21,569 nt of DNA, taken from IMG/VR virus record IMGVR_UViG_3300028995_000043; one strand, given 5' to 3'. The DNA is from a virus (taxonomy: Duplodnaviria; Heunggongvirae; Uroviricota; Caudoviricetes). Below, piece after piece: positions 5,205-21,569 of this stretch (position 1 is its first letter; every line of letters starts with the position of its first letter). Below the pieces are notes generated by a model, which saw nothing but the letters and a program-made list of their open reading frames with translations, made no database searches and had not been told where the DNA came from. The position numbers and the translations under genes are program-made.

Positions 5205-5206
5205 TG

Positions 5207-6139: not shown

Positions 6140-6256
6140 ATTCAATTTTTTCTCTAAAGCAGATTAAAAGATTCTCCACCTTCATTACGTCAGAATACAT
6201 TTCAACGATAACGAAGTGAGCGTTAACGAATCAGCGATAATTAAGGAACACCCTAT

Positions 6257-6712: not shown

Positions 6713-6906
6713 AATACATCTACAACGGCCCGGCAAGCGGCGTCACCCTTGCCGACGGACAAGAAATCTTATTGTGGCCGAACAGTGAAATTGATCTGCC
6801 AGAAGACAACGAGTGGGTCATGACCATGATTGCCCGCAATCACCTGACTTCTGTCATCACTCAGGAAGAACAAAATAACGGAGAGGAAATTGTACATGGC
6901 AGCTAA
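6709..6906 (+). CDS. Small hypothetical protein conserved upstream of the sheath gene (putative)
   Basis: 65-aa ORF whose start overlaps the preceding stop and whose 3' end overlaps the sheath start; acidic C-terminus. Confidence 0.45.
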   Translation: MKYIYNGPASGVTLADGQEILLWPNSEIDLPEDNEWVMTMIARNHLTSVITQEEQNNGEEIVHGS

Positions 6907-8317: not shown

Positions 8318-8841
8318 TGGCTGGAAAAATTCAAATTAACCGTATTACCAACGCAAATATTTATCTCGATGGTAATAACCTTTTAGGTCGTGCAACCGAA
8401 ATTAAATTGCCGGATGTCAGTTTAATTATGCAGGAGCATAAAGCACTGGGCATGGTCGGCAAAATCGAACTCCCGGCAGGGTTCGATAAACTGGAAGGGG
8501 AAATTAAATGGAACTCCTTTTATCAGGACGTCATGCGTAAAACGGCAAACCCGTGGCAGGCGGTAGCATTACAGTGCCGCTCCAGTATTGATTGCTATAA
8601 CTCCCAGGGGAAAGCGAATCAATTAGCGTTAGTCACTCATTTGACTGTCATGTTTAAAAAGAATCCACTGGGAACATTTAAACAAAATGAAAACCCGGAA
8701 TTCAGCAGCGCCTTTGGTTGCACTTATATTAAACAAGTGGTCGATGGTGAAACGCTGCTTGAACTTGATTATATGGCGAATATTTTTCGGGTTAACGGCG
8801 TGGATCAATTAAGTACCTATCGCAATAACATCGGTGGCTAA
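8317..8841 (+). CDS. Tail tube protein
   Basis: 174-aa product immediately after the sheath gene (TAATG overlap); size and position typical of P2 FII / Mu M tube proteins. Confidence 0.8.
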   Translation: MAGKIQINRITNANIYLDGNNLLGRATEIKLPDVSLIMQEHKALGMVGKIELPAGFDKLEGEIKWNSFYQDVMRKTANPWQAVALQCRSSIDCYNSQGKANQLALVTHLTVMFKKNPLGTFKQNENPEFSSAFGCTYIKQVVDGETLLELDYMANIFRVNGVDQLSTYRNNIGG

Positions 8842-8891
8842 GTTATTCGGGGCTACGGCCCCGAACTTCGCAAAATAAATAAGGATACAAA

Positions 8892-9209
8892 ATGAAAGAG
8901 CATTATATCTTACAGTTCCCGTTTACTTCAGCGGCGGGAGACGTAATTAACACTCTGCAATTACGTCGCCTGAAAGTAAAAGATATGCGCAACGCGCGCC
9001 GGATCAGCGAAAAGCCAGAAGAGTGGGATGAACCGCTAATGGCGGCAATGACCGGACTGGTGCCAGAAGATTTAGCTGAAATGGATTTGCTGGATTACCA
9101 GGCATTGCAGAAACGATTTCAATCCATGCTTACCGTGGTTACAGAATCCTCCCCTGCTATGGCAGGCAATGGCGTTACTGGCGAGATGGTTTCGCTTTCC
9201 GCCCAGTGA
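8892..9209 (+). CDS. Tail assembly chaperone (P2 gpE-like position)
   Basis: 105-aa acidic protein between tube and tape-measure genes; AAGGA Shine-Dalgarno; an overlapping out-of-frame extension follows (next feature). Confidence 0.65.
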   Translation: MKEHYILQFPFTSAAGDVINTLQLRRLKVKDMRNARRISEKPEEWDEPLMAAMTGLVPEDLAEMDLLDYQALQKRFQSMLTVVTESSPAMAGNGVTGEMVSLSAQ

Positions 9210-9297
9210 GATAGACGCCCTTACCGTCGATGACTTTAGCAACTGGCTGGATGAAGCCAGCGCTCAAATAAAGATCGAATATGACTCGCAGACCTGA
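9076..9297 (+). other. +1-frame ORF overlapping the 3' end of the chaperone gene: candidate programmed-frameshift extension (E+E'-like)
   Basis: The frame offset +1 from the chaperone is open from 9076 to a TGA at 9295-9297 and encodes ...RFPPSEIDALTVDDFSNWLDEASAQIKIEYDSQT. CUU-U (9195-9198) and GUU-U (9189-9192) are possible slip sites. A hairpin (actcgcaga...tctgcgagt, 9284-9307) follows. Confidence 0.35.
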
Positions 9298-9397
9298 TGT
9301 CTGCGAGTCCTTTAAAGCCCGCCAGGTTTATTTCTTCCCAGCCCATTTTTCAGAAAACTAACCAGCGGGCCATCACCAATCTATAAGAGAAACAATT

Positions 9398-11749
9398 TTG
9401 GCCAACGATATTATTACCCAGCTTCAGGCGCGTAATGAGACGTTGACGCAGGCAATAGCCCGTTACGGCTCACTCAACGCCAGAACTTTGTTAGCTCTCT
9501 CTTCTCAGCAAGCGACAGTAATCAAACTAACGCAGCAACTTGCCGATTCTGCTCTCCACCTGGAGGAAAATAGCCGCAGCCGCGCTAATCTGATGGAGAA
9601 AACCCACACATTTGCCGGGCAATTTAGCAAAGTATTCAATGTTGAAGCCCCCGATTGGAAGTTGCCGTATGAGTTCCAGGACAACATGGTCAATATGGCG
9701 ACCAAAGGTGGGATGAATGATACAACCCGCGAGACGCTCAGCCTTAATCTGCGCGACTGGAGCATGGATTTTAACCAGCATCAGACCACCTTACAGAACG
9801 CAGCCCAAACGCTGATCGAAGGCAATTTGTCGTCGATACAGGATCTCAACCGTTATATGCCGGAGATCGCCAAAGCTGCCACCGCCACGCGCGAAAGTAC
9901 TGAAACATGGGCGAATGCCGCGCTCGCAACCCATGATCGACTGAATATTGCGCCAGAAAATTTCCACGCCGCGCAAAACATGATGTACGGCATTAGCAAA
10001 AGCGGTGGGCCTGCCGTTGCCGAGCAAACGCAGTGGATAGACAAATTTGCAGGTAAAACCGGCGCTCAGGGTCTGGAAGGTATGACTGAACTGACTGCCG
10101 CCATGCAGATCGCCATGAAAAACGGGGCCAGCGCCAGTGCGGCGGCTGAGAATTTTGACCACTTTCTGCAAACCACCTTTTCGAAAAAAACCGATAGCTG
10201 GTTCGCCAGCCAGGGCGTCGATTTGCAAGGCTCTCTGCTTGAACATCAGCAAAACGGTATGAGTGTTAGCGAAGCCATGACTCATATCGTGCAAATGCAG
10301 CTTGAGAAGATGAATCCGGCGATCCTCGACACCTTCAAACGCACTATGCAGATTGAAGATTTATCTGCTCGCAGCACTGCGCTGCAATCGATGGTGGCGC
10401 AATTTAATCTGGGCGAAATGTTCGGCGATGCGCAAACGGTGGAATTCCTGGCACCTATGCTGGCGAATATGGAGGAATATCGCCAGTTAAAAGCCTCTGC
10501 CATGCAAACTACCAGCAAGAATCTGATTAACGCTGACTTTTCTGCGCAAATGGCCTCGCCCATTGAACAGACTAAAGCGTTACAACTGGCGTTAAATGAT
10601 TTATGGCTCAGCATTGGCTTGCAGCTTATGCCGGCGATTGGCGAGCTGGCACAAAGCCTTGCGCCGGTTATTCGCCAGTTCAGTGCCTGGCTACGCGAAC
10701 ATCCGGCGCTGGTGCAAAACATTGCGAAAATCGTCGGGGCGATTTGGCTGTTTAACGGTGCGCTTAATGTTTTAAAGCTGGGCGCGAACCTCATCGCCTC
10801 GCCGTTTATTCGTCTGGTCGATATCTTCCTGAAAGTCAGGGCAAGTCTGGCCCTCGGCGGCGCGGCAAGTAAAGTGCTATCGGCGGTTAAGTCATTGGGT
10901 GGCGGCGCAAAATGGCTAACGCAACTGCTTGGTCGTGGCCTGATCGGAGCATTGAAACTGTTTGGTCGAACCGTTCTCTCGCTAGGCCGGGTGTTATTGA
11001 TGAATCCCATTGGTCTGGTCATCACTGCGATTGCGGGCGCGGCTTATCTGATTTATCGCAACTGGGAACCTATCTCCAGGTTCTTTTCGACCATCTGGCA
11101 ACGTATCACCACGGCCTTTGACGGCGGCATTGCAGGAATTTGTCGGTTGATTCTCGACTGGTCACCGCTGGAGTTGTTCTATAGCGCCTTTTCCGATGTG
11201 ATGAATTGGTTTGGTGTTGAGATGCCTGCGAGTTTTAGCGAGTTCGGCAGCAATATACTGGGTAGCCTGGCCGACGGCATAATGAATGCTTTCCCCGCAC
11301 TGAAAGGCATTATTGATCAGGTCAAAAACGCCATGCCAGACTGGCTAAAAGCCACAATGGGTATCAGCACAGAAGCATCGGCTGCGGCTGTTACAGGCAC
11401 GGCTAATACCGCATCAGTCTCCCCCGCGACCGTTGTTCCAGGCGTTGCCGGTGCGATTTTAACGCTGCCGGTGGGCAAACAACTCGCGCCATCCGGCAAA
11501 ACGGCTACGCCGTCATCGGCAAAACCCGCGTCGGCCTCTTTACCTGGTAAATCCGTAACCAAACCGGCGACGCTACCCTCCCGTTCCCCGGGAAAAGTCC
11601 AGGTGAATTTTTCGCCACAAATTACCGTGCAGGGTAACGGACAAAACACCACTAAAGAGATTCAGAACGTGTTGACGATGAGTAAACGCGAACTGGAAAG
11701 AATGATTAACGATGTAATGGCGCAGCAGCAGCGCCGGGGGTATGCCTGA
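9398..11749 (+). CDS. Tail tape measure protein
   Basis: 783 aa, helical N-terminal half, central hydrophobic/Gly-Ala-rich segment (IVGAIWLFNGALNVLKLGANLIASPF...GLVITAIAGAAYLIY) and position after the chaperone are typical of tape measure proteins. Apparent TTG start at 9398 with AAGAGA upstream; start uncertain. Confidence 0.8.
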   Translation: MANDIITQLQARNETLTQAIARYGSLNARTLLALSSQQATVIKLTQQLADSALHLEENSRSRANLMEKTHTFAGQFSKVFNVEAPDWKLPYEFQDNMVNMATKGGMNDTTRETLSLNLRDWSMDFNQHQTTLQNAAQTLIEGNLSSIQDLNRYMPEIAKAATATRESTETWANAALATHDRLNIAPENFHAAQNMMYGISKSGGPAVAEQTQWIDKFAGKTGAQGLEGMTELTAAMQIAMKNGASASAAAENFDHFLQTTFSKKTDSWFASQGVDLQGSLLEHQQNGMSVSEAMTHIVQMQLEKMNPAILDTFKRTMQIEDLSARSTALQSMVAQFNLGEMFGDAQTVEFLAPMLANMEEYRQLKASAMQTTSKNLINADFSAQMASPIEQTKALQLALNDLWLSIGLQLMPAIGELAQSLAPVIRQFSAWLREHPALVQNIAKIVGAIWLFNGALNVLKLGANLIASPFIRLVDIFLKVRASLALGGAASKVLSAVKSLGGGAKWLTQLLGRGLIGALKLFGRTVLSLGRVLLMNPIGLVITAIAGAAYLIYRNWEPISRFFSTIWQRITTAFDGGIAGICRLILDWSPLELFYSAFSDVMNWFGVEMPASFSEFGSNILGSLADGIMNAFPALKGIIDQVKNAMPDWLKATMGISTEASAAAVTGTANTASVSPATVVPGVAGAILTLPVGKQLAPSGKTATPSSAKPASASLPGKSVTKPATLPSRSPGKVQVNFSPQITVQGNGQNTTKEIQNVLTMSKRELERMINDVMAQQQRRGYA

Positions 11750-12702
11750 TGTATGCCGTTTTAGGAGAGATTGAATTTAAAGTTGTCACATTCTGGGACG
11801 GCTTTAAAAGCACAATGGGCGTGGATTACGCCACACATGCCCGTATAGAAGGCAAACCCGGCGTGCAGTTTATTGGCGATAAGCTGGATATGCTGGCGCT
11901 GGAATTTTCCCTGCACAGCCAGTTTTGCCAACCCACAACAGAGCTGAATCGACTGCGTGAAGCCATGCTTGCTCACAAAGCAATGGCGCTGGTGTTTGGC
12001 AACGGAGATTATCGCGGCTGGTTTGTAATTACAGAGTTAACCGCCACTCACCAGCACACCGATCCCTGGGGCAATGTCATTGCCCAAAGCGGAACAATGT
12101 CGCTCCAGGAGTATACCGGCGATCCGAAAAACCCACTGCTGCCCCCGGCAATTACCACCCAGGAGCCTAATATCGAGGAAAAGGCGAGCGATTTTCCGAA
12201 TAAGGTGGAGTCCTGGTTGTATCAGATATTGAACGCCATTGAAGAAGGTATGCGCAAAGCCAAAGAGATGCTCGATGAACTGGCGCAAACCATTGAAGAT
12301 ATTAAAAAAACAGTGGCAAAAGTGAAAGCACTGATTAAAGAGGCCAAAGCGTTAAAAGAAAAGTGTGAAAAGATAATTACGTCGTTGAAAAAGACTATCG
12401 ACGCCATCGAAACCCTGTTTAAACAGCCAATGGATCTGCAAATGCTGGCAGGACTCCCAAAAGCGTTGTCGGCTCAGATTAAAGCTTTACTGGGTAACAT
12501 GCCAGGTATACGGGACTGCGCCAATGACGCCAGTACGCTGGTTGACCATGCTCAGACACTTTTCGACGACATTGCCAGCAACATCGCCGAAGCGACGTTT
12601 GATAAAGCCGCAACGTTGGTTGATCAGGCACGAACAACGGTACAACAAACCACTCCCGCAGTGAGCCAGCTTGCTGCCGCGACCATTACGAGGAGCTGGT
12701 AA
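11749..12702 (+). CDS. Tail protein, P2 gpU / Mu N (DNA-circularisation) family N-terminal domain with C-terminal coiled-coil extension
   Basis: N-terminal ~130 aa (MYAVLGEIEFKV...LREAM...GWFVITEL) align with P2 gpU as recalled; the C-terminal ~190 aa are K/E-rich coiled coil; start overlaps the tape-measure stop (ATGA-type coupling). Confidence 0.7.
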   Translation: MYAVLGEIEFKVVTFWDGFKSTMGVDYATHARIEGKPGVQFIGDKLDMLALEFSLHSQFCQPTTELNRLREAMLAHKAMALVFGNGDYRGWFVITELTATHQHTDPWGNVIAQSGTMSLQEYTGDPKNPLLPPAITTQEPNIEEKASDFPNKVESWLYQILNAIEEGMRKAKEMLDELAQTIEDIKKTVAKVKALIKEAKALKEKCEKIITSLKKTIDAIETLFKQPMDLQMLAGLPKALSAQIKALLGNMPGIRDCANDASTLVDHAQTLFDDIASNIAEATFDKAATLVDQARTTVQQTTPAVSQLAAATITRSW

Positions 12703-12911
12703 TGCGATACCTTGAACATATCACCACCGATGGCGAACGCTGGGATAACCTGGCCTGGCATTACTACGGCGATGCACTGGCTTATGAACGCATTATCGCA
12801 GCCAATCCACATGTCGCCATTTATCCGGTACTGCCTTCCGGTATTCAGCTCATCATTCCGGTCATTTCCGTCAATAAAACCTTATCGGAGATCCCACCAT
12901 GGCTGAGATAA
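12702..12911 (+). CDS. Tail protein X (P2 gpX-like)
   Basis: 69 aa; W..YYG...AANP...LP.G...P pattern matches P2 gpX as recalled. Confidence 0.7.
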   Translation: MRYLEHITTDGERWDNLAWHYYGDALAYERIIAANPHVAIYPVLPSGIQLIIPVISVNKTLSEIPPWLR

Positions 12912-13939
12912 GCGTAACTGGCGGCGTCTTTGCAACACTCACGCCCATTTTTACCCTCTGGTATGGGCATAAAGATATCACTTATGACATCACGCCTTAT
13001 GTCACCAGCATCAGTTACCAGGACAGTATTAAAAACGAGTCGGATACCATCGCGATTACACTGGATGACACCGATGGACGCTGGATAAAAGAGTGGTATC
13101 CCGGCAAAGGCGATACGCTGGCGCTGCATATGGGTTATCAGGGGGAAAAGCTGCTCGATTGTGGTCAGTATATTATTGATAAAATTGATATTTCATCGCC
13201 ACCTTCTACGGTAAATATTGATGGCATCGCCACTTCCGTCAATCAGGCGCTACGCACGCGTAACAGCCAGGGCTTTGAAGAGACGACGCTTTCGGCTATC
13301 GCCAGCCGTATCGCGCAAACGCACGGTCTGAAACTGGTGGGCAAAATCGAGCCGCTCACCATCGACCGGGTAACGCAGTATGGTGAAACCGATGTTGGAT
13401 TTCTCAAACGTCTGGCCAGTGAATATGGTTATGCCGTAAAAGTGACGACAAAAGAGCTGATTTTTTCACATTTACCCACGCTGCGCTGCCTGGCACCGGT
13501 AAAAACGATCGACCGCAAAGACGTTTCGCATTTCACCTTCAAAGATACCATTAACCGTATCTACAAAAACGCCACCGTACAGCATCAAAATAGTAAGAAA
13601 AAAGAACTGGTTATCTACACCCACGACAGCCAGCAAAAACCGTCTGCCCGTGGAGTCGGCACCAGTGCCGACACGCTAAAACTGAACAGTCGGGCGACGG
13701 ACATTGGCGCAGCACAGGCAAAGGCCAACGCTGCACTCGACAGCCACAACGAATATCAGCAAACCGGAACGCTCACAATGATGGGCTGCCCGGAACTGAC
13801 GGCGGGCAATAAAATTGAACTGACCGATTTTGGCGTGCTTTCCGGTCAGTGGCTGATTGATAAATCTACTCACAGTTTTGTGCGCAGCGGCTATACCACT
13901 GAAATCGACGTGTCACGCGGGCCAGCGACCAGCCAGTAA
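12899..13939 (+). CDS. Baseplate hub / late control protein D family (P2 gpD-like, Mu P-like)
   Basis: 346 aa; size, position after gpX and overall similarity to gpD-family proteins; GGAG Shine-Dalgarno; overlaps the gpX 3' end. Confidence 0.8.
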   Translation: MAEISVTGGVFATLTPIFTLWYGHKDITYDITPYVTSISYQDSIKNESDTIAITLDDTDGRWIKEWYPGKGDTLALHMGYQGEKLLDCGQYIIDKIDISSPPSTVNIDGIATSVNQALRTRNSQGFEETTLSAIASRIAQTHGLKLVGKIEPLTIDRVTQYGETDVGFLKRLASEYGYAVKVTTKELIFSHLPTLRCLAPVKTIDRKDVSHFTFKDTINRIYKNATVQHQNSKKKELVIYTHDSQQKPSARGVGTSADTLKLNSRATDIGAAQAKANAALDSHNEYQQTGTLTMMGCPELTAGNKIELTDFGVLSGQWLIDKSTHSFVRSGYTTEIDVSRGPATSQ

Positions 13940-13948
13940 GGAGGAAAT

Positions 13949-14650
13949 ATGAAAGGAGTAACCCGGCAAACGGGGATTATCAGCGATATTGACGAAACCA
14001 GCGTTCGGGTGCGAGTCACGCTTCCAGAGTGTGACAATCTGAAGAGCAACTGGCTTGCGGTACTTCAACGCAATTCCCAGGACAATAAAGACTACTGGCT
14101 ACCGGACATGGGAGAGCAGGTGGAGGTTCTGCTGGATGATAACGGTGAAGATGGCGTGGTGCTGGGCGCAGTATATTCAACGGTAGATACCGCGCCAGTA
14201 GCATCGCGCGACAAACGCTATGTCCAGTTTTCCGATGGCGCAGCGTTTGAATATGACCGCAGCACCCACCAGCTTACGATTAACGGTGGTATCGAAAAAA
14301 TCGTGATTGAGGTTATCGACCGTACCAGCCTGATATCGCCCAACGTTGAGGTTAAAGCCCAACACGTCACCGTGACTTCCGACACTGTTGATGTGAAAGC
14401 CACCGACGTCAGCATTGAAGCCAGTAAGGTCGATGTTAAAGCGATGGCTGTAACGGTAGACGCACCGCTCAGTACCTTTACCGGCAACGTCACGGTGATG
14501 AAAAAACTCACCTGGCTTGGTGGGATGGCAGGAAGTGGAGGCATCGGTAACACCGCCACGATAACCGGCAATGTCAACGTGATCGGCAACGTTCAGGCCA
14601 GCGGCGCATTGCAGGACAGCGGTGGCAACTCCAACCACCATTCACACTGA
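13949..14650 (+). CDS. Baseplate central spike (P2 gpV-like)
   Basis: N-terminal region aligns with P2 gpV (GEQV...DGA..EY...T..LT..G); C-terminal repetitive V/T-rich beta-helix-like segment ending in a His cluster (NHHSH), as at the gpV apex; perfect AAGGAGG Shine-Dalgarno. Confidence 0.85.
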   Translation: MKGVTRQTGIISDIDETSVRVRVTLPECDNLKSNWLAVLQRNSQDNKDYWLPDMGEQVEVLLDDNGEDGVVLGAVYSTVDTAPVASRDKRYVQFSDGAAFEYDRSTHQLTINGGIEKIVIEVIDRTSLISPNVEVKAQHVTVTSDTVDVKATDVSIEASKVDVKAMAVTVDAPLSTFTGNVTVMKKLTWLGGMAGSGGIGNTATITGNVNVIGNVQASGALQDSGGNSNHHSH

Positions 14651-14655
14651 CTTTT

Positions 14656-14686
14656 AACCCGCCTGATAGCGGGTTTTCTCTTTTTA
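14656..14686 (+). terminator. Intrinsic terminator-like hairpin inside the tail operon (between spike and gpW genes)
   Basis: 7-bp GC-rich stem aacccgc/gcgggtt with loop ctgata, followed by ttctcttttt; begins 6 nt after the spike gene stop. Confidence 0.5.
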
Positions 14687-14748
14687 ATCAATCAGTTTTC
14701 TAAATCGCTTTAATATCTCCACAGCCCGTTCAGGGCGAAAATACCCTC

Positions 14749-15108
14749 ATGAACACAAAAACACGCCCCTCAACGCTGCACTGGCAACCGGCCTTGCAGC
14801 GGCCTGAAGAATACGTCTGCGGACTGGATGATATTCACCAGGCAATACACATCATTCTGCGTACACCGCGCGGCAGTGATCCCCACAGACCGCTGTTTGG
14901 CAGCAATTTGTGGCACTACATCGATTATCCCATCGAGCGGGCGATCCCGCATGTGGTACGGGAGTCGGTAGAGGCCATCCGCCAGTGGGAACCGCGCTGC
15001 CGGTTGCTGAAGGTGACACCTGTAATCGACGGTGAACATCTGACGTTACGTGTGCAATGGCGCGCCGCTGACGGCGTAATCAACTCAACGGAGGTGTTAT
15101 GGCGATAG
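14749..15108 (+). CDS. Baseplate wedge protein (P2 gpW / T4 gp25 family)
   Basis: 119 aa; ILRTPRGS...LFGS and WEPR motifs shared with P2 gpW as recalled. Confidence 0.8.
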   Translation: MNTKTRPSTLHWQPALQRPEEYVCGLDDIHQAIHIILRTPRGSDPHRPLFGSNLWHYIDYPIERAIPHVVRESVEAIRQWEPRCRLLKVTPVIDGEHLTLRVQWRAADGVINSTEVLWR

Positions 15109-16214
15109 CCGAACCCAATTTTATTGAACGCGATCCTGCGCAAATTACCAGCGAGATGATTGCGCAATACGAAGATGCCAGCGGCAAAAAGCTCTACCCG
15201 GCACAGGCCGAGCGGTTGCTGATTGACCTTTTTGCCTATCGTGAAAACCTTGTACGCATCGCCATTCAGGAAGCGGCGAAACAGAACCTGGTCGCGTATT
15301 CCCGCGCGCCAATGCTGGATTATTTAGGGGAGCTGGTGGGCGTTCATCGTTTGCCTGCGCAGTCAGCAAAAACGACGTTGCAGTTTTCGGTTGTCAGTGC
15401 GTATACCAGCAATATCCTGATTCCCCAGGGGACGCGGGCCAGTGCCTCTGATAGCGTGATGTTCGCCACCGATGAAGATGTTCTGCTCCCGGCCAGGAGT
15501 TTGCATATCGCCGTTCCTGCCACCAGCCTCGCAGCAGGTGAACAGGGTAACGGCTGGCAGCCTGCACAAATTAGCGCTCTGGTCGACAGGATTGGTCATT
15601 ATGACATCAACGTAATCAACCTGACTGCGTCAACGGGCGGCTGCGGTGAAGAGAGCGATGACGCATTGCGCCAGCGTATCCAACTGGCACCAGAAAGCTT
15701 TAGTAATGCGGGCAGCTATGGTGCCTACCGCTTTCATACGCTTTCCGTAAGCCAGTCGATTATTGACGTTGCAGTACTGGGGCCGGACGAGGGATTGCCA
15801 GAAGGCTGCGTGGAGATCTACCCGCTAACCCTGAACGGACTGCCGGGAATAGAACTGCTCGCGCAAATCGAACAGGAGGTTAGCAAGGAGAAAAAACGTC
15901 CGCTGACCGACAAAGTGAGTGCGAAATGCGCTCTTCGAGTGCCGTATGAGATCCGTGCGCAGCTAACGCTGTTTACCACCGCCGATCAGGAGACAACTCT
16001 GGCTGCGGCGCGTAAAGCGATTAGCCTCTGGACGCAACAGCGGCAGAAACATCTGGGGCAGGACATTGTGCCAAACCAGATAATCAAAGTGTTACAGGTC
16101 GATGGCGTCTATGACGTTGTGCTGAACTTGCCTACAAAACGTATTTTGCAGGCGCATGAATGGGCGGAATGCACTGCAATAGACGTAACGATCGCCGGAG
16201 TTAGCGATGGATAA
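15099..16214 (+). CDS. Baseplate protein J (P2 gpJ-like)
   Basis: 371 aa; position and size typical of baseplate J; overlaps the gpW 3' end and the gpI 5' end (coupled). Confidence 0.8.
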   Translation: MAIAEPNFIERDPAQITSEMIAQYEDASGKKLYPAQAERLLIDLFAYRENLVRIAIQEAAKQNLVAYSRAPMLDYLGELVGVHRLPAQSAKTTLQFSVVSAYTSNILIPQGTRASASDSVMFATDEDVLLPARSLHIAVPATSLAAGEQGNGWQPAQISALVDRIGHYDINVINLTASTGGCGEESDDALRQRIQLAPESFSNAGSYGAYRFHTLSVSQSIIDVAVLGPDEGLPEGCVEIYPLTLNGLPGIELLAQIEQEVSKEKKRPLTDKVSAKCALRVPYEIRAQLTLFTTADQETTLAAARKAISLWTQQRQKHLGQDIVPNQIIKVLQVDGVYDVVLNLPTKRILQAHEWAECTAIDVTIAGVSDG

Positions 16215-16839
16215 ATTGCTGCCACCGCCGCCGCTTGCCAGCGATGAGCGTTTTTCGATTCTGGCAAATATCGCCGCCGAGCGTTTTGCCCAACTCGATC
16301 TTACGGCGTTGATGGTTTATCTGGTCGACCTGGTTGATGCTTCGGCATTACCAGCCCTTGCAGAACAATTTCACGTTCAGGGGCTGGAAGGTTGGTTATT
16401 TACCACCGATGAACGGGAGAAGCGCGAGCTAATTAAGCAAGCCATTGAGCTGCATAAATATAAAGGAACGATTTGGGCGGTACGGCGGGTGCTGGAAATA
16501 CTCTCATTACCAGGAACTATTTCAGAATGGTTTGAATATGGGGGGAAGGCTTATTTTTTTAAGGTTGATATAGAGCTGGTGGATAAAGGCATGGATGAAA
16601 ACCTTTTCAATAATCTGGTAGAACTCATTCATGAATATAAAAACACACGTTCAAAACTGGAAGCATTAATTGTCTGGATCATTAACCAAAGTGCTATTCC
16701 TGTTATTGGTTGTGCACTTTATGGTGGTGAACTGACGTCGGTTTTACCTTTCCAGATACGGGAAGTACAGCAAAACACATCAATCTATTACGGAACAGGG
16801 CAATGGAGCCTTGAAATTACATCTATTTACCCGGAGTAA
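16207..16839 (+). CDS. Tail protein I (P2 gpI-like)
   Basis: 210 aa; HKYKGTIWAVRRVLEIL matches the HxxKGT..A.RRV.E motif of P2 gpI as recalled. Confidence 0.8.
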   Translation: MDKLLPPPPLASDERFSILANIAAERFAQLDLTALMVYLVDLVDASALPALAEQFHVQGLEGWLFTTDEREKRELIKQAIELHKYKGTIWAVRRVLEILSLPGTISEWFEYGGKAYFFKVDIELVDKGMDENLFNNLVELIHEYKNTRSKLEALIVWIINQSAIPVIGCALYGGELTSVLPFQIREVQQNTSIYYGTGQWSLEITSIYPE

Positions 16840-16841
16840 TT

Positions 16842-18611
16842 ATGGATAATGAATTTTATACCCTCCTGACCAATAGAGGGATGGCAAAAATTGCCAGTGC
16901 TCTTGCGGATAAAAAACAACTGCATCTGCAAAAGATGGCCGTTGGAGACGGCGGTGGGCAATATTATGAACCCACGGCGAGTCAAACTAAATTACGCCAT
17001 GAGGTCTGGCGCGGTGATTTAAATACATTAACAGTTGCGCCCAATAATCCTAGCTGGTTAATTGCGGAACTTGTACTGCCCGAAAATATCGGCGGCTGGT
17101 ATATACGTGAAGTCGGCGTTTTTGATACCGATGGTGAACTCATTGCTATCGGTAAATTCCCGGAGTCGTATAAACCGCTATTACCCGGCGGCTGCGGTAA
17201 GCAAGTTTGCATTCGTCTCATTATGGAAGTGTCCAACACGACTGCGGTAACACTCACCGTTGATCCCAGTATTGTGCTGGCAACACGGGATTACGTCGAT
17301 TCGCAACTGGATGAACACGAACATTCGACTAACCACCCTGATGCTACATTGACACAAAAAGGCTTTACGCAGTTGAGTAACGCCACTGACAGTGATGACG
17401 AAACCAAAGCGGCTACGCCAAAAGCGGTGAAAGCGGCACTGATTGAGGCTCGAAATCATCGTCATACCTGGAGTCAGATTACTGATATACCAGATGGCAC
17501 ACTGACGCAAAAAGGGATTGTGAAGCTTAGTAACGCGACCAATAGCAACAGCACGACAGAGGCGGCGACTCCGAGCGCGGTGAAGGCGGCATATGACCTG
17601 GCGAATAGTAAGGCTGCGGGTAGTCATACGCACCCCTGGGGACAGATTACGAGTATTCCTGACGGTACCCTGACACAAAAAGGGATTGTGAAACTTAATA
17701 ACGCGACCAATAGCAACAGTACGACGGAGGCGGCGACACCGAGCGCGGTGAAGGCGGCATATGACCTGGCGAATAGTAAGGCTGCGGGAAACCATACTCA
17801 CCCATGGGGACAGATTACGGGTGTTCCAGACGGCACCCTGTCGCAAAAAGGGATTGTGAAGCTTAATAACGCGACGGATAGCAACAGTACGACGGAGGCG
17901 GCGACACCGAGCGCGGTGAAGGCGGCGTATGATAAAGCCTGTGAGGCATATAGCAGGATTAACAATTCCTCATTCCGATTCTATACATCAAATGGAACAT
18001 TTACCGTGCCAGCTGGAGTGACAGAAATACTTCTGGAAATGTCAGGCGGCGGAGGGGGCGGTGGAGGTGGGGCAGTCGCCGGAAGCTCGACAATGCTGAA
18101 TCCAAAATTTGGACTAGGCGGCGGAGCAGGAAAACCCGGTGAACTGATAATTGCCTCTCTCACAGTTAAACCCGGAGATATGTATTCCTTTACAGTTGGG
18201 TCCGGAGGGGCTGGAGGGGCTGGAGGTACACAGGTGATACCAGAGCGTGGTCCGGGATGGATTCCCGAAGATGCAATGGGGCAAGCAGGTATTCCAGGAG
18301 GAGCATCACATTTTTCTTCACAGAGTGCTTCCGGCGGTGCTGGTGGGGGGGGAGGTAAAATCATAACTATCGACTCCCCGCACGCCAACTCAGTAGGAGA
18401 GGTTCCCAAAACATACTCCAGCAACGGTGAAACTGCAGTAAATACTCCTTATGGAAAAGGGGGCTTGGGAGGAGCGAATAGTGATGGTCAATCCGGCTCT
18501 GGTTATGGGGCGGGAGGTGGGGGAGGGGCTGGTTTAGGATCAACTTGGGTAAACCACGTTGCCCGCAATGGCGGTCGTGGCTTGGGTGGTTATATAAAAA
18601 TTTTATGGTGA
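16842..18611 (+). CDS. Tail fibre protein (P2 gpH-like N-terminus, tandem fibre repeats, glycine-rich C-terminal region)
   Basis: N-terminal ~170 aa align closely with P2 gpH (MAVGDGGG...HEVWR...IAELV.P...GG...RE.G..D..G.LIA...ESYKP...ATRDYVD...EHE.S..HPDA.LT.KGFTQLS.AT.S); four ~56-aa repeats (TQKGIVKL.NATNSNSTTEAATPSAVKAAYDLA); C-terminal ~190 aa extremely Gly-rich. Confidence 0.85.
   Translation: MDNEFYTLLTNRGMAKIASALADKKQLHLQKMAVGDGGGQYYEPTASQTKLRHEVWRGDLNTLTVAPNNPSWLIAELVLPENIGGWYIREVGVFDTDGELIAIGKFPESYKPLLPGGCGKQVCIRLIMEVSNTTAVTLTVDPSIVLATRDYVDSQLDEHEHSTNHPDATLTQKGFTQLSNATDSDDETKAATPKAVKAALIEARNHRHTWSQITDIPDGTLTQKGIVKLSNATNSNSTTEAATPSAVKAAYDLANSKAAGSHTHPWGQITSIPDGTLTQKGIVKLNNATNSNSTTEAATPSAVKAAYDLANSKAAGNHTHPWGQITGVPDGTLSQKGIVKLNNATDSNSTTEAATPSAVKAAYDKACEAYSRINNSSFRFYTSNGTFTVPAGVTEILLEMSGGGGGGGGGAVAGSSTMLNPKFGLGGGAGKPGELIIASLTVKPGDMYSFTVGSGGAGGAGGTQVIPERGPGWIPEDAMGQAGIPGGASHFSSQSASGGAGGGGGKIITIDSPHANSVGEVPKTYSSNGETAVNTPYGKGGLGGANSDGQSGSGYGAGGGGGAGLGSTWVNHVARNGGRGLGGYIKILW
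17337..17935 (+). repeat. Tandem 168-bp coding repeats within the tail fibre gene (4 copies; middle two near-identical)
   Basis: Repeat units start at ~17337 (degenerate), 17490, 17658 and 17826, an exact 168-bp period for the last three; each encodes DGTL(T/S)QKGIVKL(S/N)NAT(N/D)SNSTTEAATPSAVKAAYD..., with HTHPWGQIT in the middle copies. Confidence 0.9.
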
Positions 18612-18615
18612 ACAG

Positions 18616-19221
18616 ATGACACGATATGCGTATTACCATCCGGTAACCTTTGAGGTTATTGACTGGATAGATGCAGCCTCTTTTACTGTGGAATTACCTG
18701 ATTCAGTAATTCCTGTAGATGATGAGCAGTGGCAGTTAAAAGATAAACCATGCTGGATATGTCTTGACCCATTCAAAATTATCACTACGCCACCTCCGGA
18801 TAACTTTTATATCTTAGAGGATGATAAATGGGTGTATAACAAGACGTTATTTACCGTTGCACTGGAGAATACCAAGGCTCAGGTTACACAGGAAATAAAA
18901 AATCGACGTGATGAAATAACAGTAGATTGCATCATCATCAACAACCATCACTTCCACAGTGATACAAATAGCCGTATCCAACAGCTTTCACTCACTAAAA
19001 TGGGAGCGGAGAAAAAAATCCCTCCAGGTTTAATGTGGAAAACTAAAAATAACGGTCTGATCGAGTTAACCAACGAAATCGCCGCCCAGTTTGAATCGGT
19101 CACCATGGATCACGATATGCGCCTGTTCGCCAATGCCCAGCACCATATCGCGGCGGTGGAAGCACTGGACGATATTCAGGCGGTGCTCGACTACGATTAT
19201 TCAACAGGCTGGCAACCATGA
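18616..19221 (+). CDS. Tail fibre assembly protein (Tfa / P2 gpG / Mu U-like)
   Basis: 201-aa ORF immediately after the fibre gene; size and position typical of tail fibre assembly chaperones. Confidence 0.7.
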   Translation: MTRYAYYHPVTFEVIDWIDAASFTVELPDSVIPVDDEQWQLKDKPCWICLDPFKIITTPPPDNFYILEDDKWVYNKTLFTVALENTKAQVTQEIKNRRDEITVDCIIINNHHFHSDTNSRIQQLSLTKMGAEKKIPPGLMWKTKNNGLIELTNEIAAQFESVTMDHDMRLFANAQHHIAAVEALDDIQAVLDYDYSTGWQP

Positions 19222-19673
19222 GTAAAACCACTGTCTGGCTCGCTTGTTATAAGGGCCGAACAGAGCACCGTGGTATTGCCCGACTGGCTGACTGGCTTAC
19301 CCGTAAAATCACACGTGGTCATTATTCCCACTGTGAATTAGCCATTAAGCATGGTGAAAAGAGTTACCTTTGTTACTCCGCATCACTGCGCGATCGCGGT
19401 GTACGCGGAAAAATAATGCCATTGCCAGCGGATAAGTGGGATATGCTGCCGCTCCAGGCCAGCCTTCAGGATGTGGAAACTTTTTTCCGTAAACATGATG
19501 GCAAAAAATATGACTGGCGCGGAGCATTAGGAATTATTACCGGTAATAAAGAACAGCGCGATCGCCTGTTTTGCAGTGAATTTTGTGCTGAATTTCTGCA
19601 ACTGAAGGAAAGCTGGCGCTATTCTCCAAACCACTTGTACGCTTTAGTCAGCAGTTGGCAATACCAGCAATAA
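19218..19673 (+). CDS. Hypothetical protein with permuted-papain-like His/Cys signature (possible NlpC/P60-superfamily thiol enzyme)
   Basis: 151-aa ORF translationally coupled to the Tfa gene (ATGA overlap); contains GHYSHCE early and FCSEFCAEF late, an order reminiscent of LRAT/PPPDE-type permuted papain folds. Family assignment is tentative. Confidence 0.5.
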   Translation: MSKTTVWLACYKGRTEHRGIARLADWLTRKITRGHYSHCELAIKHGEKSYLCYSASLRDRGVRGKIMPLPADKWDMLPLQASLQDVETFFRKHDGKKYDWRGALGIITGNKEQRDRLFCSEFCAEFLQLKESWRYSPNHLYALVSSWQYQQ

Positions 19674-19677
19674 ATCA

Positions 19678-19698
19678 CGCCGGGCTTTATGCCCGGCG
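19678..19698. terminator. Hairpin between convergent tail operon and NTase operon (putative bidirectional terminator)
   Basis: 8-bp GC-rich stem cgccgggc/gcccggcg with loop tttat, overlapping the NTase stop codon; modest U-richness downstream on the minus strand. Confidence 0.4.
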
Positions 19699-20487
19699 CA
19701 TTACCGTTTGATACAGCAAATTATCTAGCTCCCGAACATCTCCATCTCGACTGTCCGGTAAAATCGGCGGAATTTCCCCACGCGCCAGCTCCGCGCGAAT
19801 AAACGCATGTAACAAAGGACGGCGCGGACCATATTCCGCTTCTCCCGCGCGCTGTTTACGTTCCAGCAGTTCGTCTATTTCTGCACGTAACGGTGCATCA
19901 AGCTCGCTTCCCGCCAGTAACTCGGCAAAGCGCATTGGCGGCACACCTTTACCCGCTTCGACCCAGCGCACGGCCAGCAGCGGACGCAGCACGTAAAAGT
20001 ATTTTTTCAGTCGAACTTCATCGCCCTGCAAATAGCCGCGGAAGTTTTTCTGCGCCATCGAATAGTAATGCCAGCGTGCACGCAACGAAGAAAACCACAT
20101 TGGCACCATTGCCTTAAGCGCCGTTATCGTTTCTTCATCTTGTTGATAGACCACCGGAGAATCCAGCCATTCTATTAGCGTCGGATTCGCGCCTTTCAAT
20201 AATCCCAGCGCCTTACGCCACTCCCAACCGGAAACATCTAACTCGTCGTCGATAGGCAGTTCGATAACATCGCGCGGTGACTCTACACGCAGATACCATT
20301 CCAGCGGATGGACATACAAAAACCGTACATCGTAGTCGCTATCGGGCGAGGCAAATCCCCAGCCGCGGCTGCCTGATTCGCAGGCGTACAGCACTTTCAC
20401 GCCATAGCGACATTCTATTTCTTTTAACTGCTGCGATACCCGTTCGCGCATCGCAGCACTGACTCCATTTAATGGCATTTGACTCAT
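19687..20487 (-). CDS. Pol-beta-superfamily nucleotidyltransferase (minimal NTase fold; RlaP-like candidate)
   Basis: 266 aa; classic NTase signature GSRGWGFASPDSDYDVRF (G[GS]x9-13 DxD); AAAGGA Shine-Dalgarno; start overlaps the stop of the upstream SPFH gene by 4 nt (ATGA). Confidence 0.85.
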   Translation of the reverse strand: MSQMPLNGVSAAMRERVSQQLKEIECRYGVKVLYACESGSRGWGFASPDSDYDVRFLYVHPLEWYLRVESPRDVIELPIDDELDVSGWEWRKALGLLKGANPTLIEWLDSPVVYQQDEETITALKAMVPMWFSSLRARWHYYSMAQKNFRGYLQGDEVRLKKYFYVLRPLLAVRWVEAGKGVPPMRFAELLAGSELDAPLRAEIDELLERKQRAGEAEYGPRRPLLHAFIRAELARGEIPPILPDSRDGDVRELDNLLYQTVMRRA

Positions 20488-21569
20488 CCTTTGATATTCA
20501 CTAACCCGTGCAGAACCTGATCCAGACCACCAAATACAGAGATGTTATCGATCCGCTCAGCCACTCTCTCCAGCGTTTCCAGCTCTTTTAAACGCAACGC
20601 TACCGGATTGTTCTCCATGACTTTTGCGGTGTTCAGTAACGAGCGCGTCGCTGCCGTTTCTTCACGTCGGCGAATCACATTGGCCTGCGCAGATTTCTCT
20701 GCCTCAACCAGCTGCGCGAGGATATTTTTCATATCACCAGGCAGGACGATATCTTTCACCCCTAATGAGGCAATCTCCATACCAAATGGCAACATACGCG
20801 ATTTCACCTGTTCGCTGACAACGTCATCAATGACTTGTTTATCTTCCAGCAACTCATCCAGCGTACGCGTACCTACCGCTTCACGCAGTGCAAATTGCAA
20901 TTCCCGATACAAATGATCAATCGGCTTCGTTAACTGACTAAATGCCAATAACACGTCGCTGTAGCGCCAGTTAGCGGCGAGATTAATCCGCAGATTGACC
21001 TTATCTTTCGTTAAGATTTCTTGCCCGCTGACTTCCAGTACCTGCAAGCGGGTGTCAACCACTTCAGCTTCAACCAGATGGTTAATTTTCCAGTACGCAG
21101 TCAGCCCCGGCGGTAACAGCGCCTGCGTTTCACCATCGATTTTCAGTACACCTACGTGCCAGGCCGGAACCTGCACCGTCAGTATCGCATCGCGGCCTTT
21201 AACTACCCCTTTGCGCCGTGGCTGCAATACCGCATTCATCACCTCCGTTTGAACCTGGACTTGCTGCGTACTCATCCGCACCAGCGTCAAATCATCCTCT
21301 ACACGCCAGTACAAACGACGTGTTGATGGCGGCAGGATCTCCAGCAAAATACCGTCCATATACAACGCCCCGGCTTCAGTCTCCGACAAGTCGGCCACCA
21401 CGCAATATCTTTCCACCCACTCTGGCTGAAAGCGGCGCAAATAATCCGCCAGCACGTCGGGAACTTCGCTGCCATCGAGCGTAATCAGCAAAACTTCTGG
21501 CGTATTTAACCAGGGTAAAAGATGCTCGCCTGCATGCAGCACTTTGTAGTAATCGCCATTTCTGGAGAG
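20484..21569 (-). CDS. SPFH/band-7 (stomatin/prohibitin-like) domain protein with N-terminal extension; 5'-partial at window edge
   Basis: C-terminal ~200 aa align with stomatin-type SPFH domains (TKDKVNLRINLAANWRY; TLDELLEDKQVIDDVVSEQV...GMEIASLGVKDIVLPGDMKNILAQLVEAEKSAQANVIRRREETAATRSLLNTAKVMENNPVALRLKELETLERVAERIDNISVFG). The frame stays open to the window end, so the true start is probably beyond 21569. Confidence 0.85.
   Translation of the reverse strand, partial: LSRNGDYYKVLHAGEHLLPWLNTPEVLLITLDGSEVPDVLADYLRRFQPEWVERYCVVADLSETEAGALYMDGILLEILPPSTRRLYWRVEDDLTLVRMSTQQVQVQTEVMNAVLQPRRKGVVKGRDAILTVQVPAWHVGVLKIDGETQALLPPGLTAYWKINHLVEAEVVDTRLQVLEVSGQEILTKDKVNLRINLAANWRYSDVLLAFSQLTKPIDHLYRELQFALREAVGTRTLDELLEDKQVIDDVVSEQVKSRMLPFGMEIASLGVKDIVLPGDMKNILAQLVEAEKSAQANVIRRREETAATRSLLNTAKVMENNPVALRLKELETLERVAERIDNISVFGGLDQVLHGLVNIKG

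What the first reader, a model, noticed from the sequence alone, without database searches (positions are those of the whole stretch)
19218..19673. Small gene coupled to the tail-fibre assembly gene carries a His-then-Cys motif pair resembling permuted papain-fold enzymes
Its start overlaps the Tfa stop (ATGA), so it is the last gene of the tail operon, a slot that often holds cargo or host-range genes. GHYSHCE near the N-terminus and FCSEFCAEF near the C-terminus resemble the H...C order of LRAT/PPPDE-type NlpC/P60-superfamily enzymes. It could be a particle-associated hydrolase or acyltransferase or a lysogenic-conversion-type cargo gene.
Basis: inference. Interest (0 to 1): 0.45.

Follow-up and report, generated by a model that had tools for sequence, protein, structure and literature searches.

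The report
Misannotated papain-like enzyme beside tail-fibre chaperone
The small gene after the tail-fibre chaperone encodes a real, strongly conserved cysteine enzyme of the circularly permuted papain (YiiX-like) fold, belonging to a large phage family that databases leave unnamed or wrongly call enoyl-CoA hydratase; its substrate and role are still unknown.

Summary
The 151-aa ORF at 19218-19673 starts in an ATGA overlap with the upstream DUF4376 chaperone gene and carries GHYSHCE and FCSEFCAEF.

The fold interpretation is largely right, with one correction: the nearest relatives are the YaeF/YiiX (MEROPS C92) permuted NlpC/P60 enzymes, not LRAT or PPPDE.
- A homologue profile hits PDB 3kw0 at E 8.7e-5.
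- hhalign against a YiiX-family alignment gives 84% probability.

His38, Tyr98 and Cys119 align with the YiiX catalytic His, Tyr and Cys. Together with Trp74 they are the only invariant residues across 149 sequences. dN/dS is 0.04-0.13.

The family has about 4,500 clusters at 50% identity. It gets no Pfam or NCBIfam call, and PHROGs labels it "enoyl-CoA hydratase".

It is not cargo in an end-of-operon slot. Across 83 loci it always follows a fibre chaperone, usually with a 4-nt overlap, whatever the fibre type or phage morphology. In enteric relatives the fibre tip and chaperone N-terminus are swapped, while the chaperone's DUF4376 half and this gene stay constant.

Alteromonas phage V22 has the same trio, already annotated "permuted papain-like amidase". 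I file it as a new member of a known kind, of moderate interest.

The parts
19218..19673 (+). Gene for the 151-aa permuted papain-like (YiiX-like) cysteine enzyme; end coordinate includes the stop codon
   Evidence: ORF. Profile, hhalign and fold matches to YiiX and 3kw0. dN/dS 0.04-0.13.
19218..19221 (+). ATGA start/stop overlap with the chaperone gene (translational coupling)
   Evidence: Sequence. The same 4-nt overlap occurs in 50 of 77 distinct relatives, and 74 of 77 lie within -11 to +3 nt.
19329..19331 (+). Codon of His38, the predicted catalytic His (motif YSHCE)
   Evidence: Invariant in 149/149 sequences. Aligns with YiiX His49 (residue roles from PMC3142127).
19335..19337 (+). Codon of Glu40, a family-specific near-invariant acid two residues after the His; candidate substitute for the missing third triad residue
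   Evidence: 147/149 conserved. YiiX has Gly at this position, and YiiX Glu64 aligns to Ser54/Ala55 here. The proposed role is inference.
19509..19511 (+). Codon of Tyr98 (motif GKKYDW), the predicted oxyanion-hole tyrosine
   Evidence: Invariant in 149/149. Aligns with YiiX Tyr115 in GKPYDF.
19572..19574 (+). Codon of Cys119 (motif FCSE), the predicted catalytic nucleophile
   Evidence: Invariant in 149/149. Aligns with YiiX Cys128 and BcPPNE Cys154.
18616..19221 (+). Upstream tail-fibre chaperone (Tfa-like) gene. The N-terminal ~90 aa are variable; the C-terminal DUF4376 domain spans aa 87-193 (nt 18874-19194)
   Evidence: Pfam DUF4376, E 1.1e-13. DUF4376 proteins are experimentally shown fibre chaperones in Alteromonas phages (PMC7289586, PMC10579305).
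18890..19700 (+). Constant block shared among enteric relatives: the DUF4376 half of the chaperone, the enzyme gene and the terminator
   Evidence: DNA homology resumes at 18889-18949 in nine of the twelve enteric relatives compared (at 18570 and 19192 in two others; one relative has no separate block) and runs on to 19666-19700. Protein identity is 76-96% for the chaperone C-terminal half and 75-99% for the enzyme, against 17-36% for the chaperone N-terminus in nine of the ten relatives compared.
16842..18611 (+). Tail fibre gene. The N-terminal collar and repeats are conserved; the C-terminal glycine-rich tip (aa 401-589) is swapped between relatives
   Evidence: Pfam Phage_tail_fib, Phage_fiber_2 and a weak Gly_rich_2 hit. 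The tip is 0-37% identical among relatives.
19676..19700 (.). G+C-rich hairpin (10 pairs, 8 G-C) between the convergent operons; terminator-like
   Evidence: It is scored on the minus strand and sits directly after the enzyme gene's stop codon.

Best explanation
The gene encodes an active thiol enzyme of the circularly permuted NlpC/P60 (papain-like) fold. It belongs to a divergent, signal-peptide-less branch of the YaeF/YiiX (C92) group.

Catalysis (inferred from the family mechanism): Cys119 is the nucleophile, His38 the general base and Tyr98 the oxyanion-hole residue. The reaction would pass through an acyl-thioester intermediate that is resolved by water (hydrolase) or by an amine or hydroxyl group (acyltransferase).

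Substrate (inferred by analogy): every characterised permuted member acts on fatty-acyl linkages, so the most likely substrate is a lipid-type acyl ester or amide, such as a phospholipid, a lipoprotein or lipid A acyl chain, or an N-acyl amino group, rather than peptidoglycan.

Expression (shown by sequence and synteny): it is made late, by translational coupling to the tail-fibre chaperone. It is inherited as one constant block with the chaperone's DUF4376 half, while the fibre tip and chaperone N-terminus are exchanged.

Role (speculative): a generic accessory of the host-recognition module, independent of which receptor the fibre binds. It may be recruited by the chaperone and so act at the fibre tip, or be released with the particles at lysis, to act on envelope lipids common to all hosts.
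For: Fold and active site:
- Homologue profile against PDB hits 3kw0 at E 8.7e-5, with the His and Cys motifs aligned.
- hhalign against the YiiX family gives probability 83.7%, E 8e-6, and aligns His49, Tyr115 and Cys128 with H38, Y98 and C119.
- AF2 model: pLDDT 84.9, pTM 0.83.
- Foldseek against PDB gives 3kw0 as the only significant hit.
- BFVD hits include phage proteins named C92.
- H38, W74, Y98 and C119 are the only invariant residues in 149 sequences.
- dN/dS is 0.04-0.13.

Lipid-type chemistry of the permuted clades:
- A fatty acid is bound in YiiX and the S1 pocket is hydrophobic (PMC3142127).
- LnsA is required, with LnsB, for N-acylation of lipoproteins; the two proteins' individual roles are not yet known (PMC7387801).
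- Tox-Act1 and TseH are phospholipases, and DUF4105/Lnb is a lipoprotein N-acyltransferase (PMC12994826).

Coupling to the chaperone:
- ATGA overlap here, and a 4-nt overlap in 50 of 77 distinct relatives.
- The upstream gene is DUF4376 in 43 and Caudo_TAP in 17 of those 77.
- The fibres two genes upstream are of many types, and the downstream genes vary.
- The same order is seen in SuMu, Mcat7, pAN, Pm86, V22 and divergent metagenomic members.
- Constant-block inheritance is shown.
- There is no promoter-like site of its own, and the G+C content matches its neighbours.
Against: - No biochemical or genetic data exist for any member, so substrate, location and role are inferred.
- The protein fails the Pfam PF05708 threshold.
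- The Glu that completes the triad in YiiX and BcPPNE is Ser/Ala at the aligned position.
- It has no signal peptide, whereas the YiiX-family N-terminus looks signal-peptide-like (consensus) and PMC3142127 notes that many PPNEs carry lipoprotein signal peptides. A cytoplasmic enzyme cannot reach outer-membrane lipids before lysis.
- In phage V22 the fibre and chaperone alone give a functional receptor-binding protein, so the enzyme is dispensable for fibre folding and binding (PMC7289586).
- Many fibre-chaperone pairs lack it; for example it is not listed among the host-recognition-module proteins that phage A5 shares with V22.
- Constant-block inheritance could simply reflect where homologous recombination crosses over.
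Confidence: 0.6

Rival explanations
1. Processing enzyme for the fibre-chaperone complex. As a cysteine protease or amidase it would cleave or release the chaperone 'cap', or trim the fibre, after assembly.
For: - Strict adjacency and coupling to chaperone genes.
- It is inherited together with the constant DUF4376 half, which could be its substrate or docking partner.
- DUF4376 chaperones are proposed to act as transient caps on fibre tips (PMC10579305).
- Xu et al. conclude that the permuted enzymes are cysteine peptidases or related enzymes.
Against: - V22 gp26 plus gp27 give an active fibre without the enzyme, and the chaperone dissociates on its own.
- The gene also follows Caudo_TAP-type chaperones that are unrelated to DUF4376.
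- Permuted members characterised so far act on fatty-acyl rather than peptide bonds.
Confidence: 0.12
2. Lysogenic-conversion or moron cargo, unrelated to tail function: a host-benefiting or exclusion gene parked at the end of the tail operon.
For: - It is the last gene of the operon here.
- The post-Tfa position in P2-like phages is a known moron slot (own knowledge: P2 Z/fun). In five relatives the gene lies between the Tfa and the sheath gene.
- PHROGs places the family in the 'moron/AMG' category.
- It is accessory, and absent from many fibre modules.
Against: - No promoter-like site; a 4-nt overlap with the chaperone gene; G+C content like its neighbours.
- Upstream linkage is constant while downstream genes vary.
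- It sits inside tail operons in Pm86 and Mcat7.
- It is present in the lytic phage V22.
- It is kept under purifying selection in a tail-only element.
- The PHROG category derives from a wrong name.
Confidence: 0.1
3. Cell-wall (peptidoglycan) hydrolase that helps the tail penetrate, as assumed for canonical NlpC/P60 proteins and for 'papain-like amidases' in some phage papers.
For: - It belongs to the NlpC/P60 superfamily.
- It lies in a tail-module context.
Against: - It is closest to the permuted YiiX clade, whose S1 pocket is narrow and hydrophobic and judged unsuitable for peptides.
- TseH was re-assigned as a phospholipase.
- It has no export signal and is not fused to a tail protein.
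- The element already encodes a lytic transglycosylase.
Confidence: 0.07
4. Enoyl-CoA hydratase / carnitine racemase-like metabolic enzyme, as labelled in GenBank and PHROG 1128.
For: Only the inherited names.
Against: - No crotonase (or any other) Pfam or NCBIfam hit at E <= 1.
- The model and profile matches are to papain-like proteins.
- At 151 aa it is far shorter than crotonases (own knowledge).
Confidence: 0.01
5. Non-catalytic or metal-binding structural protein that merely keeps the papain-like scaffold.
For: - The canonical acidic triad residue is missing.
- PDB 2if6 was deposited as 'metalloprotein yiiX'.
- His38, Glu40 and Cys119 could in principle bind a metal.
Against: - Exactly the three catalytic positions (His, Tyr, Cys) are the invariant ones across 149 sequences. 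This is the pattern of an active enzyme.
- The third residue is dispensable in LRAT and is replaced by a water molecule in PPPDE1.
Confidence: 0.04

Closest known systems
YaeF/YiiX-like permuted NlpC/P60 enzymes (MEROPS C92, Pfam PF05708); solved structures E. coli YiiX 2if6 and B. cereus BcPPNE 3kw0
   Same: - Same permuted order His, then Tyr, then Cys, and all three align.
- The motifs resemble each other: YSH here and in YiiX, GK.YD before the Tyr, and CSE at the Cys.
- Ser37 and Asp59 align with BcPPNE Ser48 and Asp68, two residues of its amino-acid-binding S1' site.
   Different: - Only about 19% identical.
- Below the Pfam threshold.
- Shorter, at 135-180 aa against about 200.
- No signal peptide.
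- The triad Glu64 position is Ser/Ala, and there is a family-specific near-invariant Glu two residues after the His (HxE instead of HTG).
- Phage-encoded and tied to tail-fibre chaperone genes.
Alteromonas myovirus V22 ORF28, annotated 'permuted papain-like amidase' (MN877442; PMC7289586)
   Same: - Same three-gene order: fibre (RBP), DUF4376 chaperone, small permuted papain-like protein.
- Its start overlaps the chaperone's stop.
- It is homologous to this family: hhalign probability 96.3%, E 1.7e-9.
   Different: - About 21% identity.
- WSHCG and FCYE motifs.
- Sub-threshold but detectable C92 hit, E 9e-4.
- It is in a lytic marine phage.
- The authors listed it only as 'protein catabolism' and did not study it.
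Other permuted NlpC/P60 clades: LRAT/PLAAT (H-RAS-like suppressors), PPPDE/DeSI, picornavirus 2A H-box/NC, MARTX RID, TseH / Tox-Act1, LnsA, DUF4105/Lnb
   Same: They share the permuted core and Cys/His chemistry through an acyl-thioester intermediate. They give the working analogy for acyl-lipid hydrolase or transferase activity.
   Different: - No NCEHF-type LRAT motif.
- No membrane anchor, toxin-delivery domain or immunity gene.
- No Pfam hits to these families.
[quoted passage not shown] Haemophilus phage SuMu gp51, Pasteurella phage Pm86 ORF70)
   Same: This is the same protein family: E 4e-58. The members sit in the same position after the tail-fibre assembly gene.
   Different: The name is unsupported. 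There is no crotonase signal and the fold is papain-like.

Membership tests
Permuted NlpC/P60 (PPNE) group, YaeF/YiiX-like (C92) | Circularly permuted order of catalytic residues, with His N-terminal and Cys near the C-terminus at the start of a helix | tested here: met
   H38 lies at the start of strand 38-44 and C119 at the start of helix 119-126. Both are invariant and align to YiiX His49/Cys128 and BcPPNE His49/Cys154.
Permuted NlpC/P60 (PPNE) group, YaeF/YiiX-like (C92) | Conserved tyrosine (YiiX Tyr115), the fourth catalytic residue, preceding the Cys | tested here: met
   Y98 in GKKYDW aligns with Tyr115 in GKPYDF and is invariant in 149/149.
Permuted NlpC/P60 (PPNE) group, YaeF/YiiX-like (C92) | Third polar triad residue, Glu64 in YiiX and BcPPNE, on the strand after the His | tested here: not met
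   Glu64 aligns to S54 (hhalign) or A55 (hmmsearch). These columns are Ser/Thr/Ala across the family. The near-invariant E40 may substitute, but this is untested. Xu et al. note that this residue is dispensable in LRAT and absent in PPPDE1.
Permuted NlpC/P60 (PPNE) group, YaeF/YiiX-like (C92) | Three-dimensional similarity to solved members | tested here: met
   [not shown]
Permuted NlpC/P60 (PPNE) group, YaeF/YiiX-like (C92) | Score above the curated Pfam PF05708 gathering threshold | tested here: not met
   No hit for the window protein at E <= 1. Only 2 of 55 homologues give weak hits, best E 0.0053. The profile-level relationship is nonetheless significant.
Permuted NlpC/P60 (PPNE) group, YaeF/YiiX-like (C92) | Narrow hydrophobic S1 pocket able to hold a fatty-acyl chain | not testable with these tools
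LRAT / PLAAT family | NCEHF-type Cys motif, second His of the H-box, C-terminal membrane anchor | tested here: not met
   [not shown]
PPPDE / DeSI family | Sequence or fold closest to PPPDE peptidases | tested here: not met
   [not shown]
Crotonase (enoyl-CoA hydratase/isomerase) superfamily | Crotonase fold and profile match | tested here: not met
   No hit at all in Pfam or NCBIfam at E <= 1, crotonase families included. No crotonase appears among the fold matches.
Phage moron / lysogenic-conversion cargo | Autonomous expression (own promoter and terminator), atypical composition, variable linkage to neighbours | tested here: not met
   No promoter-like site on the + strand in 16000-20600. 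The start overlaps the upstream stop, and G+C is 0.47-0.49, like the tail genes. The upstream neighbour is a fibre chaperone in at least 60 of 77 distinct relatives. Expression itself was not measured.

The most novel reading that the evidence does not exclude
The chaperone may be a two-part adaptor. Its variable N-terminus fits a given fibre tip, and its constant DUF4376 half recruits the co-translated enzyme. Phage and tailocin particles would then carry a thiol lipid-acyl hydrolase or transferase at the fibre tip. There it could deacylate or re-acylate outer-membrane lipid (lipid A, phospholipid or lipoprotein) on contact, or lipidate the fibre or chaperone itself. That would be a previously undescribed class of virion-associated lipid-modifying host-recognition accessory.
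Probability: 0.15. Interest if true: 0.75.

Novelty: new member of a known kind. Interest (0 to 1): 0.42.

Why it matters
This is a very large family: about 4,500 clusters at 50% identity and at least 542 loci in IMG/VR. It occurs in prophages of E. coli, Salmonella, Haemophilus, Pasteurella, Neisseria and Moraxella. It is currently unnamed or carries a wrong metabolic label that has already leaked into association studies; for example, it is listed among Haemophilus parasuis pathogenicity candidates in PMC4532294.

Re-assigning it as an active YiiX-like thiol enzyme corrects that annotation. Its rigid coupling to tail-fibre chaperones, across myo-, sipho- and podovirus-type modules and in a tail-only (tailocin-like) E. 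coli element, points to an unstudied enzymatic step in the host-recognition module.

The bacterial YiiX/YaeF enzymes themselves have no known physiological substrate. A phage member with a simple phenotype assay (particle yield, adsorption, killing) could be a tractable way to find what this clade does. It is also relevant to engineering fibres and tailocins, where the fibre-chaperone cassette is usually moved without this gene.

Tried and rejected
Searches that found nothing:
- Single-sequence Pfam and NCBIfam scans gave no hits.
- phmmer against PDB gave only a non-significant 3kw0 hit, E 1.6.
- hhalign of the family against the single YiiX sequence was weak, at 12.7% probability. It needed a YiiX-family alignment.
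- PADLOC gave no defence-system match for this gene, the chaperone, or the two convergent downstream genes.
- A full-text search for the RefSeq accessions of the three proteins found no paper.
- Searches for a described E. coli or enteric tailocin at lysC found nothing relevant.

Dead ends:
- The afdb50 fold library was not available.
- The SuMu genome and proteome paper says nothing about gp51, and its proteomics is too shallow to show virion association.
- The listing of cluster members on ten divergent or extended representatives returned no names or organisms, so the host range of the wider family stays unknown.
- The extended family members (P0111, P0133, P0159, P0198, P0217) show no informative fused Pfam domain, so there is no Rosetta-stone fusion to fibre or chaperone.
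- The long ORFs in some loci are artefacts of overlapping frames.

Considered and rejected:
- A lipoprotein signal. The N-terminal WLAC is not a lipobox: there is no hydrophobic h-region, Cys10 is not conserved, and the segment is a core beta-strand.
- Enoyl-CoA hydratase.
- LRAT or PPPDE membership.
Full report
**1.

The window carries a 151-aa ORF at 19218-19673 on the + strand. Its ATG overlaps the TGA of the preceding 201-aa ORF (18616-19221), giving ATGA. Residues 34-40 read GHYSHCE and residues 118-126 read FCSEFCAEF.

The upstream ORF is a DUF4376 protein (E 1.1e-13). DUF4376 proteins were shown experimentally to be tail-fibre chaperones in Alteromonas phages V22 and A5 (PMC7289586, PMC10579305).

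Upstream of that lies a 589-aa tail fibre with collar, fibre-repeat and glycine-rich domains. Downstream there is a strong hairpin at 19676-19700 and two convergent genes, an RlaP-type nucleotidyltransferase and a slipin.

**2. Genomic setting**

The window is identical over the 1,872-bp stretch tested (18616-20487) to the E. coli chromosome between lysC and yjbD, for example in strain A10. The inserted element runs from a Mor-family activator through holin, lytic transglycosylase, sheath, tube, tape measure and baseplate genes to fibre, chaperone and this gene. No capsid, portal, terminase, transposase or repressor genes are annotated. It therefore looks like a Mu-like tail-only, tailocin-like or defective element.

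The 151-aa gene occurs once, on the chromosome, in 199 of 5,426 complete E. coli genomes. It is labelled 'hypothetical protein' in each of the eleven listed hits that cover the whole gene. The two convergent flanking genes are far more widespread: 1,630 genomes match the query spanning the chaperone, this gene and the nucleotidyltransferase.

**3. It is a real, constrained gene in a big family**

- One search gave 89 homologues.
- A profile search of 1.84 billion cluster representatives gave 4,469 hits at E <= 1e-3 and 1,924 at E <= 1e-10. Nearly all of the 150 listed are single-domain proteins of 135-180 aa.
- IMG/VR holds at least 542 loci.
- Nei-Gojobori dN/dS against enteric orthologues is 0.04-0.13.

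Pfam and NCBIfam give no call. [quoted passage not shown]

**4. Fold and active site**

Sequence evidence:
- A profile of 55 homologues hits the B. cereus C92 'cysteine peptidase' 3kw0 at E 8.7e-5. SH aligns to SH and FCSE to ICSE. E. coli YiiX (2if6) is hit weakly.
- I fetched yiiX from the same E. coli genome, collected its relatives and aligned them.
- hhalign between the two family alignments gives probability 83.7%, E 8e-6, over 96 columns. It pairs H38 with His49, Y98 (GKKYDW) with Tyr115 (GKPYDF), and C119 with Cys128.
- According to Xu et al. 2011 (PMC3142127), these are three of the four catalytic residues of the permuted NlpC/P60 enzymes.

Structure evidence:
- An AlphaFold2 model built on the alignment has pLDDT 84.9 and pTM 0.83.
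- Foldseek finds 3kw0 as the only significant PDB hit.
- Foldseek against BFVD returns uncharacterised Caudovirales proteins, plus some named C92 or cysteine peptidase.

Conservation: in 149 sequences (the window protein plus 148 cluster representatives, each standing for a 50%-identity cluster) the only invariant residues are H38, W74, Y98 and C119. S37, E40, S56, D59, G61, V62, R63, E121 and P137 are nearly invariant.

Departures from YiiX:
- The Glu that completes the triad in YiiX and BcPPNE falls on Ser54/Ala55 here.
- The family has its own near-invariant Glu two residues after the His. I suspect, but cannot show, that it takes over that role.
- There is no signal peptide, whereas the YiiX-family N-terminus looks like one (consensus).
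- Ser37 and Asp59 align with BcPPNE Ser48 and Asp68, two residues of its amino-acid-binding S1' site.

The crotonase label has no support. No hit at all appears at E <= 1, crotonase families included, and the fold is papain-like.

**5. Context is the second result**

On 83 loci I located the homologue and its neighbours.
- A ~150-270-aa ORF on the same strand ends at the homologue's start in nearly every locus.
- Among 77 distinct upstream proteins, 50 overlap by 4 nt and 7 by 8 nt, and 74 lie within -11 to +3 nt.
- The upstream proteins are DUF4376 in 43 cases and Caudo_TAP in 17.
- Two genes upstream are fibres of many kinds: Phage_fiber_2, Collar, Gp53-like_C, Gly_rich_2, gp37_C and S74-type.
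- Downstream genes vary: D12 methyltransferase in 19, tail sheath in 5, RlaP in 5, plus acetyl- and glycosyltransferases.

The same trio is found in several morphotypes:
- the Mu-like phage SuMu, before com;
- Moraxella and Pasteurella siphoviruses, in the middle of the tail genes, and before the tape measure gene in Pm86;
- a Pseudomonas siphovirus, near the lysis genes;
- divergent metagenomic members, including a contig with a P22-type portal.

The gene is therefore linked to the chaperone, not to an end-of-operon slot. Here it has no promoter-like site of its own and ordinary G+C content.

**6. Mosaic structure**

I compared the window with twelve enteric relatives.
- DNA homology is high through the baseplate genes and the fibre shaft, and is lost over the fibre tip and the first ~90 codons of the chaperone.
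- It resumes at 18889-18949, around the start of the DUF4376 domain, in nine of the twelve, and runs on to 19666-19700. Two resume elsewhere (18570, 19192) and one has no separate block.
- At protein level, for ten of these relatives, the fibre tip is 0-37% identical. The chaperone N-terminus is 17-36% identical, with one relative at 81%.
- The DUF4376 half is 76-96% identical and the enzyme 75-99%, and the two track each other.

The enzyme is thus independent of receptor specificity and is inherited with the constant half of the chaperone. This fits a model in which the DUF4376 half is the enzyme's partner. It also fits plain homologous crossover in conserved flanks.

**7. What is already known**

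Alteromonas myovirus V22 has ORF26 (fibre/RBP), ORF27 (DUF4376 chaperone) and ORF28, annotated 'permuted papain-like amidase'. ORF28's start overlaps ORF27's stop.

ORF28 is a homologue of this family (hhalign probability 96.3%, E 1.7e-9). It has a sub-threshold C92 hit (E 9e-4), so it bridges the two families.

The authors listed it only as 'viral metabolism-related, protein catabolism'. They showed that gp26 plus gp27 suffice for a functional receptor-binding protein. The enzyme is therefore not needed for fibre folding or binding.

A Bacillus phage paper also mentions a papain-like amidase among tail genes and assumes a cell-wall role. I found no experimental work on any member.

**8. Mechanism**

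Shown: the fold, the invariant His/Tyr/Cys, purifying selection, coupling to the chaperone gene, and constant-block inheritance.

Inferred from the family: catalysis through a Cys119 acyl-thioester, with a fatty-acyl ester or amide as the likely bond. The basis is as follows.
- YiiX crystallised with a fatty acid in a hydrophobic S1 pocket.
- LnsA is required, with LnsB, for N-acylation of lipoproteins; their individual roles are not yet known.
- Tox-Act1 and TseH are phospholipases, and DUF4105/Lnb is a lipoprotein N-acyltransferase.

Speculative: where it acts. It has no export signal. It must therefore act in the cytoplasm late in the cycle, be released at lysis, or ride on the particle through the chaperone.

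I rank the possible roles as follows:
1. A generic lipid-acyl hydrolase or transferase accessory of the recognition module (first).
2. A processing enzyme for fibre or chaperone (second).
3. Cargo, muralytic, structural-only and crotonase readings (well below).

**9. Verdict**

This is a new, misannotated member, and in effect an unrecognised subfamily, of a known enzyme kind. It has an unexplained but very regular association with tail-fibre chaperones. Interest is moderate.

Noticed in passing
window 4033-19673 (L001 5418-21058): The whole phage-like element between lysC and the RlaP/slipin pair is tail-only. It has a Mor activator, holin, lytic transglycosylase, sheath, tube, tape measure, baseplate, fibre, chaperone and the enzyme, but no annotated head, packaging, transposase or repressor genes. 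It looks like a Mu-type tailocin or a defective prophage. It is present in about 199 of 5,426 complete E. coli genomes, with relatives in Salmonella, Enterobacter, Superficieibacter and Phytobacter. I found no paper describing it.
   Followed up: partly
window 18070-18890: The fibre tip and the chaperone N-terminal ~90 codons form a swapped host-range cassette among otherwise 90-95% identical islands. The 3' crossover point lies around the start of the DUF4376 domain. This implies that the chaperone's N-terminal part, not DUF4376, is the fibre-specific half.
   Followed up: yes
window 19687-21542 (- strand): Convergent pair: an RlaP-family nucleotidyltransferase (Pfam E 1.7e-95) and a slipin/SPFH protein. 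About 1,630 E. coli genomes match a query that includes the nucleotidyltransferase gene, far more than carry the tail element. There is no PADLOC match and the function is unknown. Phage V22 also carries a stomatin-like gene, probably by coincidence.
   Followed up: partly
window about 18345-18352: There is a run of eight G inside the glycine-rich C-terminal part of the tail-fibre gene. A homopolymer of this length could slip and switch the fibre tip off. I did not check it against other strains.
   Followed up: no
window 4400-4950: An AT-rich (G+C about 0.35) non-coding stretch lies between the divergent Mor gene and the holin gene. It is presumably the regulatory region of the late operon.
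   Followed up: no
L085 (JAEZCC010000043.1): A contig binned as a 'Bacillota bacterium' MAG carries a 97%-identical copy of the E. coli gene. This is almost certainly a binning contaminant, not evidence of the family in Gram-positive bacteria.
   Followed up: no
L165 45652-46994 (E. coli A10, second P2-like prophage): In the same genome, a P2-like prophage has an unrelated 197-aa hypothetical gene in the slot between the tail-fibre assembly gene and the sheath gene. The post-Tfa position therefore does hold other genes in other elements.
   Followed up: no
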